From a phage, in the sequence record PV419677.1: DNA of 64,000 bases; one strand, 5' to 3'. Each line of letters begins with the position of its first letter. Position 1 is the stretch's first letter. This document shows positions 37,962 to 59,085 of this stretch, piece by piece. The position numbers and the translations under genes were made by a program. A model generated the notes under the pieces. The model was not told the DNA's origin. It saw nothing but the letters and a program-made list of their open reading frames with translations, and searched no databases.

Positions 37962-38225
37962 TCAGAATTTTACATACAGCATTGGCTTGGATTCTTGCCA
38001 ATCATAATTCCAGGTAAAAGATGTAAATTTTTCTGCTCGCAGAAATTCAGATATCTTTGCGCGGTTTCCTTCTTCATACTCTTTTTCAGAAACTGCCATA
38101 TTAACAGCATCTTTGCCATTCTCGGCGGCGGCGATAGCCACTTTGCGAAATATAGAAATAAAGTCATTTGCAACTTTATCTTGTGACTCTTTGGCTATTT
38201 GGCGTAGTTCTTCTGCGAATGTCAT
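37962..38225 (-). CDS. hypothetical protein (T4 24.2 position)
   Basis: 87 aa ORF from track, synteny only. Confidence 0.5.
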   Translation of the reverse strand: MTFAEELRQIAKESQDKVANDFISIFRKVAIAAAENGKDAVNMAVSEKEYEEGNRAKISEFLRAEKFTSFTWNYDWQESKPMLYVKF

Positions 38226-38425
38226 TTCTTCACCTTTTTGTTATTCAAACGTTTACGATAAACAATCTTTTCTTTCGCTTTAAATTTAGCTTTGGCTTGT
38301 TCTACATCAACCCAGGCCTTTGCCATCTCTTTAGCAGTCCCGCCTAATACCTTGGCGATTTCAATAAATGTCATACCAGATTCATGCAGAAAATGTACTT
38401 TAACCTTATCCATAATGATTCTCAT
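38222..38425 (-). CDS. small helix-turn-helix-like protein (T4 24.3 position)
   Basis: 67 aa; ESGMTFIEIAKVLGGTAKEMAKAW resembles an HTH DNA-binding motif. Confidence 0.45.
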   Translation of the reverse strand: MRIIMDKVKVHFLHESGMTFIEIAKVLGGTAKEMAKAWVDVEQAKAKFKAKEKIVYRKRLNNKKVKK

Positions 38426-38567
38426 GTTGAGTTAGTGAAGTTATCTTAACATGGAATTTTTAACTTGTAAACATGATTTTTATGCCAGATGAACAATTGC
38501 ATGGTATGGTCACAAAGACTCACTAGAGAAGGGTCCAGGTAACATTTGCCCAGTACCATAAAAATAA

Positions 38568-38590
38568 AGGGACCCGAAGGTCCCTTTTTA
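38568..38590. terminator. bidirectional hairpin terminator downstream of hoc
   Basis: GGGACC-CGAA-GGTCCC flanked by A/T runs. Confidence 0.55.
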
Positions 38591-38591
38591 A

Positions 38592-57750: not shown

Positions 57751-57770
57751 AGGGACTCCGAAGAGTCCCT
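57751..57770 (-). terminator. rho-independent terminator (minus strand)
   Basis: AGGGACTC-TTCG-GAGTCCCT followed by U-run on minus strand. Confidence 0.55.
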
Positions 57771-57774
57771 GAAC

Positions 57775-57936
57775 TTATGCTTTCGGCTTACCAAAGCAAG
57801 CTGCATCGGCACGCAATACCGCACGAGCACGAGCCTGAAGTTTATCAGTCACCTGATTGATTCGCTTGTTGGACGCACGCTTGTAACCAGCGCGTTTGGA
57901 GGAGTCATCAACAACTTTAACTTCTTTCTTAGCCAT
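57775..57936 (-). CDS. small basic protein (53 aa), not in ORF track
   Basis: Hand translation: MAKKEVKVVDDSSKRAGYKRASNKRINQVTDKLQARARAVLRADAACFGKPKA; followed by terminator. Confidence 0.4.
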   Translation of the reverse strand: MAKKEVKVVDDSSKRAGYKRASNKRINQVTDKLQARARAVLRADAACFGKPKA

Positions 57937-58325
57937 ATTAAATTCTCTTTAAAATAGAATGCAGGACTTATTGGCATTGCCTGCGCAAGCCCTCGAAGGG
58001 AACATTAGGTTTCGGATATTTAACGACAGGATAACCATAAACCTCGTCATCATAGCTCTTATCTGTTGCACACCGTTAGCTTAAAGGTTCCGGGTTCGAT
58101 TTCTCGAGGATAAGATATATACTGATGGATATATAGGCCTTGAGGCGTACTCCCGATTGGCCATCACCTCGGGGTAGCATGCACTTGCCGCTATAAAATA
58201 ACATTCAAGAGGTACACCGTAAAACTGCCGAGGTCTTAAAACTATAATGATTCGCAAATCATTAATCAGACAGTTCGACGGCTCCTCGATTTTAGCTCAC
58301 ACTAAGGCAGTGAATCTCCAATAAA
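57937..58325. other. ORF-free region (~390 bp) with tRNA-like T-arm fragment and several local inverted repeats
   Basis: No ORF with SD on either strand; CCGGGTTCGATT at 58081-58092 resembles a tRNA T-stem/loop without a complete cloverleaf. Confidence 0.3.
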
Positions 58326-58580
58326 TTACTTCAATGTTACCACAAAGTGACGAACTGCTTTTCGTGCAGCAGATGCCAGCGGCTTAGCAAATTTCAGTTC
58401 ATCTTTTGCTTCGAGCACTGCGCGAAGGTCGGTTTGAACCGGGTTAAGATGTTTGAAATACTGCAGAATTTCCAGTGCTTCGGCTTCAACATCAATAGAT
58501 GCGCCGTAGTTTTCGTGACCGTTATTCCATGCAGTGCGTTGCAGTTCGAGAGCGTGTTGTAATTGTTTGTTTAAAGACAT
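58326..58580 (-). CDS. rIII: rIII-like protein (lysis inhibition accessory)
   Basis: 84 aa from ATG 58580 (SD GAGG): MSLNKQLQHALELQRTAWNNGHENYG...; size and position between the 30.x cluster and gene 31 as T4 rIII. Confidence 0.55.
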   Translation of the reverse strand: MSLNKQLQHALELQRTAWNNGHENYGASIDVEAEALEILQYFKHLNPVQTDLRAVLEAKDELKFAKPLASAARKAVRHFVVTLK

Positions 58581-58720
58581 TTTAGAAGCCTCAATATGAG
58601 GTGAATATTTGGTGGACACGTTCTTCTGAATTTCACTTCCTTTCGGCAAGTCTCTCAGTTGTAGTCCACCGTTTAGGATTCTCCGGTTAACTAACTGGTC
58701 CGGCAGCCAATCCATATTAT

Positions 58721-58728
58721 TATTTATA
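58721..58728 (-). promoter_or_regulatory. late promoter TATAAATA (minus strand) upstream of rIII
   Basis: Exact TATAAATA on minus strand. Confidence 0.4.
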
Positions 58729-58737
58729 ACGCTAATT

Positions 58738-59085
58738 TTACTTATAAAGACAAGGAACAGCTTTATAATGACAGGTCACAAATTTCTGCTTAACTTCTTT
58801 AGCCTGCTTAAGTCCCAGTGCAACCAGAGGATGTGGAACGTTTGCAATCTTGCCAACCGGAAGAGGAGTCAAATCACCTACTTCGCAGAAGCCTTCAGGA
58901 ACATCCGGACCAACCGAAAATACTTCACACATCTCCGGGATTTCACCCTGATGGAGTTTTCCGATAACGATGCCTGATGCCGTAGTTTCTTCATCACCAG
59001 CTTGCTTTGGCTCAGAAACCAAAATAATATATTCACCTACTGCTTTAATTGGTAATTCCATATTTAATCCATGTTGTTTGGTCAT
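58738..59085 (-). CDS. 31: gp31 co-chaperonin (GroES analogue)
   Basis: 115 aa; [29 protein letters not shown]...[14 protein letters not shown] matches recalled T4 gp31. Confidence 0.9.

What the first reader, a model, noticed from the sequence alone, without database searches (positions are those of the whole stretch)
57937..58325. 390-bp ORF-free stretch with a tRNA-like fragment inside a tightly packed early region
Everywhere else in this region genes overlap or are separated by under 60 bp, yet between the 53-aa ORF and rIII there are ~390 bp with no SD-preceded ORF on either strand. It contains CCGGGTTCGATT (58081-58092), resembling a tRNA T-arm, but I cannot build a full cloverleaf. It also has several short inverted repeats. 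Candidates are a small stable RNA, a decayed tRNA, or a recombination scar replacing the T4 30.8/30.9 genes.
Basis: seen in the sequence. Interest (0 to 1): 0.45.

Follow-up and report, generated by a model that had tools for sequence, protein, structure and literature searches.

The report
Unannotated structured RNA in T-even phages
The gene-free stretch between the phage genes rIII and 30.9 is neither junk nor a dead tRNA: it is a chain of folded RNA modules, and one 148-base module, absent from every catalogued RNA family searched, is better conserved than the neighbouring protein genes in about 400 T4-type phage genomes.

Summary
The window is an SP18-like T-even phage (Gaprivervirus). The 389-bp ORF-free gap at 57937-58325 is real and is the longest non-coding stretch in the window. 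Its neighbours are ordinary rIII and gp30.9, so nothing was replaced. T4, JD18, EcS1 and others have the same gap.

The "T-arm" string is at 58090-58101, not 58081-58092. It occurs at chance frequency and lies antisense to the genes. It is the reverse complement of a GAAA-loop hairpin. ARAGORN and Rfam find nothing.

The gap, read on the gene strand, is a mosaic of RNA modules. The central one (B, 58197→58050) is a 148-nt RNA with seven nested helices plus a loop-loop kissing helix.
- 98% of pair cells are paired; shifted-register controls give 28-44%.
- 30 of 40 nested pairs show compensatory changes.
- The kissing helix exists in five sequence versions.
- 17 G·U against 0 A·C pairs set the strand.
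- B is in 407 phage records, optional within genera, and absent from T4.
- It recurs in Slopekvirus-type phages in a different operon with no downstream gene.

It is most likely an autonomous functional RNA domain of a new family. Its function is not established.

The parts
58326..58580 (-). rIII (lysis-inhibition accessory protein), 84 aa. The true start is the ATG at 58580. The 129-aa mechanical ORF is over-extended.
   Evidence: phrog_1457, E 2e-42. Alignment with T4, JD18, EcS1 and other rIII proteins.
58291..58325 (-). Module M1: a short hairpin (CACU..AGUG) followed by GCUAAAAU. In JD18-type phages the same module lies directly upstream of B.
   Evidence: Comparison of the gaps by eye. 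Only one-sided changes were seen, so support is weak. A promoter role was not tested.
58201..58290 (-). Module M2: a long irregular hairpin with an apical 8-bp stem (UAAUGAUU-UGCG-AAUCAUUA).
   Evidence: RNAalifold on 12 sequences gives 25 pairs, 5 with compensatory changes. Inverted repeat I6.
58050..58197 (-). Module B: a 148-nt structured RNA of a new family.
- P1 58195-58190 / 58056-58051
- P2 GGC/GCC
- P3 long helix with a bulged A
- P4 hairpin
- P5 UCUUAUC/GAUAAGA
- P6 GNRA hairpin
- P7 ACCCG/CGGuGU
- Invariant junctions: AAGnGCAU, CCUnAnGGCC, GAMCC, GCUAA, GCAAC
   Evidence: Covariation counts. Covariance-model hits. Strand from G·U versus A·C pairs. Junctions more conserved than helices.
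58161..58166 (-). 5' strand of the kissing-loop (pseudoknot) helix, UGAUGG, in loop L3.
   Evidence: Pairs with 58123-58128. The helix is 6-7 bp in all 16 representatives and exists in 5 sequence versions.
58123..58128 (-). 3' strand of the kissing-loop helix, CCAUCA, in loop L4.
58090..58101 (+). It is the reverse complement of AAUCGAACCCGG: half of the GAAA loop, the P6 3' strand and the start of P7.
   Evidence: Not conserved as GGTTCGA in homologues.
58004..58048 (-). Module D: a candidate H-type pseudoknot. It has stem GAC(G)AGG/CCUGUC, a loop pairing with AAACC(U) downstream, and an invariant CGUUAAAUA linker. In other phages it sits upstream of B.
   Evidence: Alignment A7. Lineage-specific complementary versions of stem 2 of 7-10 bp, against 4-5 bp in cross-lineage controls. 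Support for the window's own version is weaker (5 bp).
57986..58003 (-). Module E: the hairpin GUUCCCUUCGAGGGCUUG (consensus GUACCC-loop-GGGCUUG). It accompanies B in several contexts, including Slopekvirus.
57961..57984 (-). Module F: the hairpin GCAGG...CCUGC, followed by a U-rich tract and the 30.9 ribosome-binding site (AAAGAGAA, 57943-57950).
   Evidence: Read from the sequence. Replaced by longer hairpins in JD18 and PG7 types.
57775..57936 (-). gp30.9, a 53-aa basic protein of unknown function.
   Evidence: phrog_1427, E 2e-25. SP18 annotation.
57751..57770 (-). Intrinsic terminator that closes the rIII-gap-30.9 transcription unit.
   Evidence: Same arrangement in JD18.

Best explanation
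The gap is the transcribed, non-coding spacer of the rIII-30.9 transcription unit. On the gene (minus) strand it folds into a chain of independently folding RNA modules: M1, M2, B, D, E and F. T-even phages shuffle these modules.

The central module B (58197->58050) is a 148-nt RNA of a previously uncatalogued family. It is a multi-helix junction closed by P1, with a conserved kissing interaction between the loops of P3 and P4 and invariant junction nucleotides. The tRNA-like string is an accident of reading one of its hairpins backwards.

How it most likely works (inferred): B is an autonomous functional RNA domain, not a leader dedicated to gene 30.9. It is made as part of a long mRNA near the 3' end of an operon. 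It acts through its conserved junction core by binding a factor common to enterobacterial hosts or T-even phages, either inside the mRNA or after excision as a stable small RNA. It is accessory rather than essential.

Shown: the existence of the structure, its strand, its non-coding nature, its modularity, its distribution and its context independence.
Inferred: transcription as part of the operon, and any trans-acting or factor-binding role.
For: Structure:
- On 18 distinct sequences, 98.5% of cells are paired and 22 of 46 pairs show compensatory change. Slid controls give 29-42% paired and 2-6 such pairs.
- On a broader set of 15 distinct sequences, 98.0% of cells are paired and 30 of 40 pairs are compensatory. 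Slid controls give 28-44%.
- The kissing helix is present in all 16 representatives, in 5 sequence versions.
- Members outside the seed alignment still fit the model: L067 at 107 bits and Slopekvirus K41P2 at 90.5 bits, E 8e-21.

Strand and coding:
- 17 G·U against 0 A·C pairs.
- No reading frame is open across all members, and 1-nt indels occur.

Selection:
- B is 90-99% identical to JD18, Kosakonia 305 and fPS-65, where rIII, gp31 and 30.9 are 65-85% identical.
- 26 of 63 unpaired columns are invariant, against 16 of 80 paired columns.

Autonomy:
- Its neighbours differ between phages. Upstream can be M2, M1, E or the rIII stop codon. Downstream can be D or E.
- In Slopekvirus-type (Slopekvirus/Pseudotevenvirus) phages it follows the last ORF of the uvsY operon. 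That operon converges on uvsW and ends in a terminator, so no downstream gene exists in the same orientation.

Transcription unit: no sigma-70-type promoter or intrinsic terminator lies inside the gap on the gene strand, and a terminator follows 30.9.

Accessory status: B is absent from T4 and from most Tequatrovirus and Slopekvirus genomes.

Not catalogued: no Rfam 15 hit, and no paper in the library holds the sequence.
Against: - No transcript, processing or binding data are available, so function is entirely inferred.
- Alignments A4-A6 were fitted to the model, which inflates pairing counts. A3, aligned by MAFFT, is not affected.
- P2 and most of P7 never vary among the Tevenvirinae members and gain support only from the few divergent members.
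- Near-identity across genera could partly reflect recent lateral exchange of the module rather than purifying selection alone.
- In more than 400 genomes B does sit upstream of 30.9, so a cis role there cannot be excluded.
- One genome (Klebsiella phage 17-11) carries B broken by an inversion. Together with its absence from T4, this shows B is dispensable in the laboratory.
- T4-type middle and late promoters were not scanned.
Confidence: 0.45

Rival explanations
1. B is a cis-regulatory leader for gene 30.9, either a riboswitch-like aptamer or a protein-binding operator. It would control 30.9 translation or transcript elongation in response to a ligand or to the basic gp30.9 protein itself.
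For: - In the Tevenvirinae all B copies lie between rIII and 30.9 on the gene strand.
- Conserved junctions, covarying helices and variable peripheral stems are the typical look of an aptamer.
- The spacer ends with hairpins next to the 30.9 ribosome-binding site.
Against: - Distance and content between B and the 30.9 start vary. D, E, F or other modules may intervene, and D can be upstream instead. There is therefore no conserved expression platform.
- T4 and many relatives express 30.9 from the same spacer without B.
- Slopekvirus-type copies have no downstream gene in the same orientation.
Confidence: 0.15
2. B, possibly together with its flanking hairpins, is an RNA-processing or stability element. 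It could be a self-cleaving ribozyme or an RNase entry or blocking structure. It would separate the rIII and 30.9 parts of the transcript or protect them from exonucleases and Rho.
For: - Like small self-cleaving ribozymes, it occurs without a fixed gene context, in phages, as an optional module.
- It has an invariant core with covarying helices and a pseudoknot.
- It is flanked by A/U-rich linkers.
- It lies in the 3'-proximal part of operons, upstream of a terminator.
Against: - It matches no ribozyme family in Rfam, even at E<=10.
- Simple protection against nucleases would not need about 40% invariant unpaired columns or a kissing loop.
- Neither catalysis nor cleavage can be tested here.
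Confidence: 0.25
3. The gap holds unannotated small protein genes. Some GenBank records do annotate hypothetical proteins here.
For: - Mechanical ORFs of 40-58 aa exist on the gene strand.
- UPEC07 and other records annotate CDSs in the gap.
- A conserved AUGAUG precedes module D, and a 40-aa frame is open in both the window and T4.
Against: - No frame is open through B in all members.
- The 40-aa frame is cut by a stop in JS98-type phages, by AUG-UAG in PG7, and after 10-16 codons in JD18 and L075 types.
- Between paired indels the predicted peptide changes completely.
- There are no Pfam hits.
- Substitutions are compensatory in helices.
Confidence: 0.03
4. A decayed tRNA gene, or a recombination scar of degraded coding sequence with no function.
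For: - The 12-nt resemblance to a T-arm on the plus strand.
- The region is mosaic, with presence/absence modules.
Against: - ARAGORN finds 0 genes, and no tRNA or tmRNA hit appears in Rfam.
- The motif is at chance frequency and is not conserved.
- The functional strand is the opposite one.
- The gap is more conserved than the flanking genes.
- 30.8 and 30.9 are intact.
Confidence: 0.02

Closest known systems
T4 small stable RNAs rnaC and rnaD (species 1 and 2 RNAs)
   Same: They are about 120-140 nt, structured, phage-encoded and cut out of a longer transcript. Their function is still unknown, and they are dispensable.
   Different: There is no sequence or structure relationship: the B model scores at most 6 bits on the T4 rnaC/rnaD/tRNA region. 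rnaC ends in a genuine tRNA-like T-arm and acceptor. They lie in the tRNA cluster, not after rIII. T4 has rnaC and rnaD but lacks B.
Orphan structured RNA motifs found by comparative genomics in phages (e.g. Weinberg et al. 2010 and 2017, PMC2864571 and PMC5737381; the catalogue of more than 10,000 viral candidates, PMC10690425)
   Same: Discovered in the same way, from covariation in intergenic regions. They are phage-restricted, of unknown function, and have conserved junctions with covarying helices.
   Different: No motif that has reached Rfam 15 matches B. Whether B is an unnamed entry of the 2023 catalogue could not be checked because its tables are not held. That paper's text mentions no T4-type, rIII or Enterobacteria case.
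Riboswitch aptamers with multi-helix junctions and loop-loop contacts (for example the lysine and SAM-I classes; comparison from general knowledge)
   Same: A junction closed by P1, a kissing or pseudoknot contact between neighbouring arms, invariant junction nucleotides, and tolerated insertions in peripheral loops (EcS1 L7, Slopekvirus P6).
   Different: B has no conserved expression platform, no constant downstream gene, and one context with no downstream gene at all. No Rfam riboswitch model matches.
Promoter-early stem-loop (PeSL) mobile regulatory cassettes of T4-type phages (Arbiol et al. 2010; cited from memory)
   Same: Short non-coding modules with sharp borders that are shuffled between T4-type genomes and mark mosaic junctions.
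   Different: PeSLs are an early promoter plus a terminator-like hairpin. The gap has no sigma-70-type promoter or terminator on the gene strand. B is a 148-nt multi-helix RNA, not a simple stem-loop.
tRNA
   Same: Only a 12-nt string resembling GGTTCGAAT on the plus strand.
   Different: There is no cloverleaf, the strand is wrong, the string is not conserved, and no detector fires.

Membership tests
tRNA / tRNA-like element | A cloverleaf with acceptor, D, anticodon and T arms that tRNA finders can detect | tested here: not met
   ARAGORN finds 0 genes in the whole window. No tRNA or tmRNA match appears in Rfam at E<=10 or at gathering scores.
tRNA / tRNA-like element | A T-arm: a 5-bp stem around a conserved UUCRANY loop, kept in homologues | tested here: not met
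   CCGGG/TCTCG do not pair. Homologues read GGTCCGA, GGTCTGA and similar. The string is the antisense of a GNRA hairpin. G·U pairs place the RNA on the other strand.
Any Rfam 15 family (4,227 models) | A score at or above the gathering threshold, or at least a suggestive E-value | tested here: not met
   No hit lies in the gap at E<=10. None appears in five other loci carrying B at E<=1. None appears in the window at gathering scores.
Conserved structured RNA (generic) | Base pairs maintained by compensatory substitutions above shifted-register controls | tested here: met
   98% of cells paired against 28-44% in controls, and 22/46 and 30/40 pairs with double changes against 2-9. The kissing loop exists in 5 versions.
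Riboswitch / cis-regulatory leader | A constant position upstream of one gene class, with an adjacent expression platform (terminator/antiterminator or RBS-sequestering helix) overlapping the aptamer | tested here: not met
   Variable modules and distances lie between B and the 30.9 start. In Slopekvirus-type (Slopekvirus/Pseudotevenvirus) phages no downstream gene lies in the same orientation.
Riboswitch / cis-regulatory leader | Ligand-dependent structural switching | not testable with these tools
   This needs in-line probing or reporter assays.
Self-cleaving ribozyme | Site-specific self-scission in vitro | not testable with these tools
   The only indirect test gave no match to the hammerhead, twister, twister-sister, pistol, hatchet, HDV-like, hairpin, VS or glmS models in Rfam.
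Protein-coding gene | A reading frame kept open and in register among homologues | tested here: not met
   Every frame has stops in some member, and 1-nt indels separate close relatives. There are no Pfam hits.
PeSL-type mobile regulatory cassette | An early (sigma-70-type) promoter coupled to a terminator-like stem-loop | tested here: not met
   No promoter-like or terminator-like site lies inside the gap on the gene strand, in either the window or JD18.
3'-UTR-derived or processed stable small RNA | Location in the 3'-proximal part of a transcription unit, upstream of its terminator | tested here: met
   The window and JD18 have the order rIII - gap - 30.9 - terminator. K41P2 has last ORF - B - E - further structure - terminator.
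3'-UTR-derived or processed stable small RNA | Accumulation of a discrete processed RNA species | not testable with these tools
   No transcriptome data are available for a phage that carries B.

The most novel reading that the evidence does not exclude
Module B is a new class of functional RNA that T-even phages carry as an accessory weapon. It could be a new self-cleaving or otherwise catalytic RNA. Alternatively it could be a decoy or sponge whose invariant junction core binds a conserved host factor, such as a defence nuclease, a ribosomal or RNA-decay protein, or a signalling nucleotide. That would explain why it is more conserved than the proteins around it, moves as a cassette between operons and genera, and is dispensable in laboratory hosts.
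Probability: 0.25. Interest if true: 0.85.

Novelty: categorically new. Interest (0 to 1): 0.66.

Why it matters
T4-type phages are among the best-studied genetic systems, and no RNA feature was annotated at this site in any of the records examined. The gap is either left blank or covered by spurious "hypothetical protein" calls, and once by "1,4-alpha-glucan branching enzyme".

A 148-nt RNA with a pseudoknotted multi-helix fold has these properties:
- Its junctions are conserved more strongly than its helices.
- It is more conserved than the adjacent proteins.
- It is present in about 400 sequenced phages of Escherichia, Klebsiella, Enterobacter, Yersinia, Serratia, Erwinia, Edwardsiella and Citrobacter.
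- It is optional within genera.

This is the signature that has repeatedly led to new ribozymes, riboswitches or protein-binding RNAs. Natural B-plus and B-minus relatives exist (fPS-65 or JS98 against T4), and many carriers are candidate therapeutic phages. The function is therefore directly testable and could bear on host range or on interactions with host defences.

The result also gives annotators a covariance model to stop calling false ORFs here. It shows that the whole rIII-30.9 spacer is a shuffled array of RNA modules.

Tried and rejected
- **tRNA/tmRNA:** ARAGORN and Rfam were negative.
- **Single-sequence folding:** Either strand of B and the whole gap gave unremarkable z-scores of -0.6, -0.1 and -1.4. 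Thermodynamics alone would have missed the element.
- **tmRNA PK1 resemblance:** A similarity recalled from memory (AAGGUGCAUGCCGAGG against AAGUGCAUGCUACCCCGAGG), with an alternative GAGG/CCUC pairing, was dropped. That pairing is not maintained in L010, PS2 or L014.
- **RNAalifold's small hairpin inside L3:** Replaced by the better-supported kissing helix.
- **T4 rnaC/rnaD:** Not related.
- **Repeats within the window:** No second copy of B, D or E in the window. No B at the window's own uvsW/uvsY.-2 junction.
- **Homologues outside phages:** None in 185,579 bacterial and archaeal genomes with two patterns. All pattern hits in non-T4-type viral and metagenomic contigs were chance.
- **CsrA-, RegB- or anticodon-loop-like motifs in B:** Considered by eye and rejected. 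The GGA, GGAG and UUUAA strings are not invariant.
- **MotA-type middle promoter in M1:** Considered by eye. The box is not in a conserved register, so this is left open.
- **Literature:** Seven searches, including the sequence itself, found no description. The 2003 Biologija paper on rIII/30.9 expression (reference 74 in PMC9409239) is not in the library.
- **Column-wise covariation count for module D:** Abandoned because bulges shift the register. A per-sequence complementarity test was used instead.

Full report
**1. The observation**

All genes here lie on the minus strand.
- gp31 is at 58738-59085.
- rIII has its stop at 58326. Its real start is 58580, by alignment with eight rIII proteins.
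- A 53-aa ORF is at 57775-57936, followed by an intrinsic terminator at 57770-57751.

Between rIII and the 53-aa ORF lie 389 bp (57937-58325). With ORFs of at least 70 aa this is the longest uncovered stretch of the window. The only comparable stretch, 38226-38591, is mostly filled by a 67-aa ORF.

Its core GGTTCGA occurs 7 times in the window against about 5.7 expected.

**2. Where we are**

The window is a Gaprivervirus, an SP18-like T-even phage.
- The 53-aa ORF is gp30.9 (phrog_1427).
- The next gene is 30.8 (phrog_1507).
- The upstream gene is rIII (phrog_1457).

Nothing has been replaced. An ORF-free rIII-30.9 spacer is a shared feature of the group:

| Phage | Spacer (bp) |
|---|---|
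| T4 | 244 |
| JD18 | 352 |
| EcS1 | 321 |
| SP18 | 397 |
| fPS-65 | 398 |

More distant T4-type phages have no spacer.

**3. The spacer is conserved and modular**

BLAST of the gap alone finds 999 phage records. Many Tequatrovirus genomes match at 93-95%, higher than the roughly 87% of the surrounding 700 bp. Coverage falls into classes of 100%, 62%, 43% and 30%. One sub-block is 95% identical in Klebsiella Jiaodavirus phages, whose flanks do not align.

Aligned on the gene strand, the spacer falls into modules with sharp borders:
- M1 and M2 follow the rIII stop.
- The central module is B.
- D, E and F lie before the 30.9 ribosome-binding site.

The modules combine in different ways:
- T4 has M1, M2, D, E and F but lacks B.
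- Some Gapriverviruses with an rIII identical to the window's carry a different 55-nt module (B') in B's slot.
- In JD18-type phages the order is D, M1, B, E, F.
- In Karamvirus types B starts a few bases after the rIII stop codon.

**4. Module B is a structured RNA**

*Structure on the MAFFT alignment.* On 18 distinct sequences RNAalifold predicted 44 pairs, 20 of them with compensatory changes. I replaced one small predicted hairpin with a loop-loop helix seen by eye and then counted pairs:
- 98.5% of cells are paired.
- 22 of 46 pairs have changes on both sides.
- No shuffle out of 500 reached these values.
- Shifted registers gave 29-42% paired cells and 2-6 compensatory pairs.

*The fold* (window coordinates in the parts list):
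- P1 closes the molecule.
- P2 (GGC/GCC) carries a long helix P3 with a bulged A.
- P4 is a hairpin whose loop pairs with the P3 loop (UGAUGG/CCAUCA).
- P5 carries a GNRA hairpin (P6) and helix P7, which has a 15-nt loop.

*Independent members.* A covariance model built from this alignment found B in 26 of 58 T-even loci, always just downstream of rIII. One hit, L067, was a divergent member not used in the seed (107 bits, 37% G+C). In it P2, P3, P4, P5, P6 and P7 all differ yet all pair.

BLAST then produced a 32-nt match in a Slopekvirus. The model scores that locus at 90.5 bits (E 8e-21). Two Pseudotevenvirus records (Citrof4 and Olmo) score 82 bits.

*Broader set.* On the set of 15 distinct sequences:
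- 98.0% of cells pair.
- 30 of 40 nested pairs show compensatory change.
- Slid controls give 28-44%.
- This alignment is fitted to the model, which flatters the numbers. A3 is not.

*Kissing helix.* It is present in all 16 representatives as 6-7 contiguous pairs, in five versions:
- CGAUGG/CCAUCG
- UGAUGG/CCAUCA
- CUAUGG/CCAUAG
- CAAUGA/UCAUUG
- UGCAUUU/GAAUGCA

**5. Strand, coding potential and selection**

- Paired cells contain 17 G·U and no A·C, so the RNA is sense to rIII and 30.9.
- No frame stays open in all members, and close relatives differ by 1-nt indels.
- B is more conserved than its neighbours:

| Compared with | B (% identity) | gp31 / rIII / 30.9 (% identity) |
|---|---|---|
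| JD18 | 89.9 | 65 / 76 / 68 |
| Kosakonia phage 305 | 92.6 | 72 / 68 / 68 |
| fPS-65 | 98.6 | 76 / 85 / 67 |

- Unpaired columns are invariant more often (26 of 63) than paired ones (16 of 80). The invariant blocks are GGnAAGnGCAU, CnUnAnGnCC, CCnnGAnCC and GCUAAnnGUGnGCAACnG. This is the usual pattern for RNAs with a functional core held by covarying helices.

**6. Distribution**

- B is in 407 of 50,697 phage records, all T-even-like. Hosts include Klebsiella, Escherichia, Shigella, Enterobacter, Yersinia, Salmonella, Citrobacter, Serratia, Raoultella, Erwinia and Edwardsiella.
- In these records the locus is annotated as nothing or as a hypothetical protein.
- It is optional within Tequatrovirus, Gaprivervirus and Slopekvirus.
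- Two pattern scans of 185,579 bacterial and archaeal genomes found none.
- Scans of IMG/VR and of metagenomes recovered only T-even-type copies.
- Rfam 15 has no match for any member.
- No paper in the library contains the sequence or describes the element.

**7. The other modules**

- **M2** (58290→58201) is a long hairpin, with 5 of 25 pairs compensatory among close relatives.
- **D** (58048→58004) looks like an H-type pseudoknot with an invariant CGUUAAAUA linker. Its second stem exists in lineage-specific complementary versions of 7-10 bp that do not cross-pair. The window's own version is only 5 bp.
- **E** (GUACCC-loop-GGGCUUG) follows or precedes B in several lineages, including the Slopekvirus locus.
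- None of these modules is repeated elsewhere in the window.

**8. The tRNA idea**

- ARAGORN finds nothing in 64 kb.
- The would-be T-stem does not pair.
- The string is the reverse complement of AAUCGAACCCGG: the end of the P6 GAAA loop, the P6 3' strand and the first P7 bases.
- Because P6 covaries (UCGA, CCGA, CUGA, CAGA, UAGA and others), the "GGTTCGA" reading disappears in relatives.
- T4 rnaC, which does end in a true T-arm, is unrelated to B.

**9. How it probably works**

*Shown:*
- No sigma-70-type promoter or intrinsic terminator lies inside the gap on the gene strand.
- A terminator follows 30.9, both in the window and in JD18.
- The spacer should therefore be transcribed with rIII and 30.9.

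*Context:*
- B's neighbours on both sides change from phage to phage.
- In Slopekvirus-type phages B lies after the last small ORF of the uvsY operon. That operon converges on uvsW and ends in a bidirectional terminator, so no gene follows in the same orientation.
- This argues against a leader dedicated to 30.9. It favours an autonomous domain.

*Inferred:*
- B acts through its invariant junction core by binding a factor common to enterobacterial hosts or T-even phages. It could act within the mRNA or after excision. I put this at about 0.45.
- A processing, ribozyme or stability role is about 0.25.
- A cis regulator of 30.9 is about 0.15.
- The existence of the fold itself I put at about 0.95.

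**10. Comparison with known elements and novelty**

B works most like the orphan structured RNAs of phages and the T4 stable RNAs rnaC and rnaD. It is a member of none of them. It fails the tests for tRNA, for every Rfam family, for coding sequence, for PeSL cassettes and for a classical riboswitch arrangement.

I rate it as a new RNA family. One caveat applies. A 2023 catalogue of more than 10,000 unnamed viral RNA candidates (PMC10690425) could contain it, and its tables were not available to check.

**11. Limits**

- There are no expression data.
- T4 middle and late promoters were not scanned.
- The effective diversity is modest. Most copies are at least 90% identical, and about six lineages carry the covariation signal.
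- Lateral transfer may contribute to the high identity across genera.
- Modules M1, E and F rest on inspection only.

Noticed in passing
L041:1883-1945 and the same slot in L043-L046, L048, L049, L051; related hairpin in L058, L086 and EcS1 (L006): An alternative module of about 55 nt (B': CUAUCACGCGUCAGAAAAAGGUUAUCUGUCUAAGUCGUGGUUGG) occupies exactly the slot of B in phages whose rIII is identical to the window's. A related hairpin with a covarying outer stem lies just before 30.9 in other genera.
   Followed up: partly
L216:1396-1790 (Klebsiella phage K41P2, Slopekvirus); L218 and L219:608-760: Divergent B copies lie in the uvsY.-2/uvsW convergent spacer. They are followed by an E-type hairpin (GUACCCGAAAGGGGCUUG), about 200 nt of further GC-rich hairpins and a bidirectional terminator. 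Most Slopekviruses keep the downstream part but lack B.
   Followed up: partly
L217:2494-2787 (Klebsiella phage vB_KpnM_17-11): B is split. Its 5' half is on one strand (2494-2577) and its 3' half is inverted (2787-2658). This is either a real inversion that destroys the RNA or an assembly error.
   Followed up: no
window 58329-58339 and 58199-58209: The last codons of rIII (UAACAUUGAAG) are 10/11 complementary to the end of module M2 (CUUGAAUGUUA). The pairing could enclose M1 and M2 in a long-range helix spanning the rIII stop codon. It is weaker in T4 (8/11).
   Followed up: partly
window 58581-58737: rIII really starts at 58580 (84 aa). The 129-aa ORF, and SP18's 390-nt rIII annotation, are over-extended. 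The gp31-rIII spacer of about 157 bp is therefore also non-coding, and a promoter-like site lies at its upstream edge, overlapping the end of gp31 (58748-58719).
   Followed up: partly
window 57937-58325 as annotated in GenBank relatives (UPEC07, EAWsc9, EC.W15-3, AV116): Public records place "hypothetical protein" CDSs, and in several cases "1,4-alpha-glucan branching enzyme", over this non-coding spacer. These are annotation artefacts.
   Followed up: partly
window 58045-58050 and homologous positions: A conserved (G)UAUGAUG lies just 5' of module D in most lineages. It opens a frame of variable length: 40 aa here, 13 in JS98, 10 in JD18, and an immediate stop in PG7. It could be a short upstream ORF coupled to the pseudoknot, or simply part of the structure.
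   Followed up: partly
window 58291-58325 (M1) and JD18 L005:2143-2180: M1 ends in GCUAAAAU / GCUAGAAAAU, a -10-like element, preceded in JD18 by UUUGCUAC, which resembles a MotA box. If this is a middle promoter, transcripts would start at the 5' edge of M2 in the window or of B in JD18. The register is not conserved.
   Followed up: no
window 38426-38591: A 166-bp ORF-free stretch lies between the start of a 67-aa ORF (38222-38425) and the end of the 377-aa Ig-repeat (Hoc-like) gene. It is the next-largest gap in the window when ORFs of at least 50 aa are counted.
   Followed up: no
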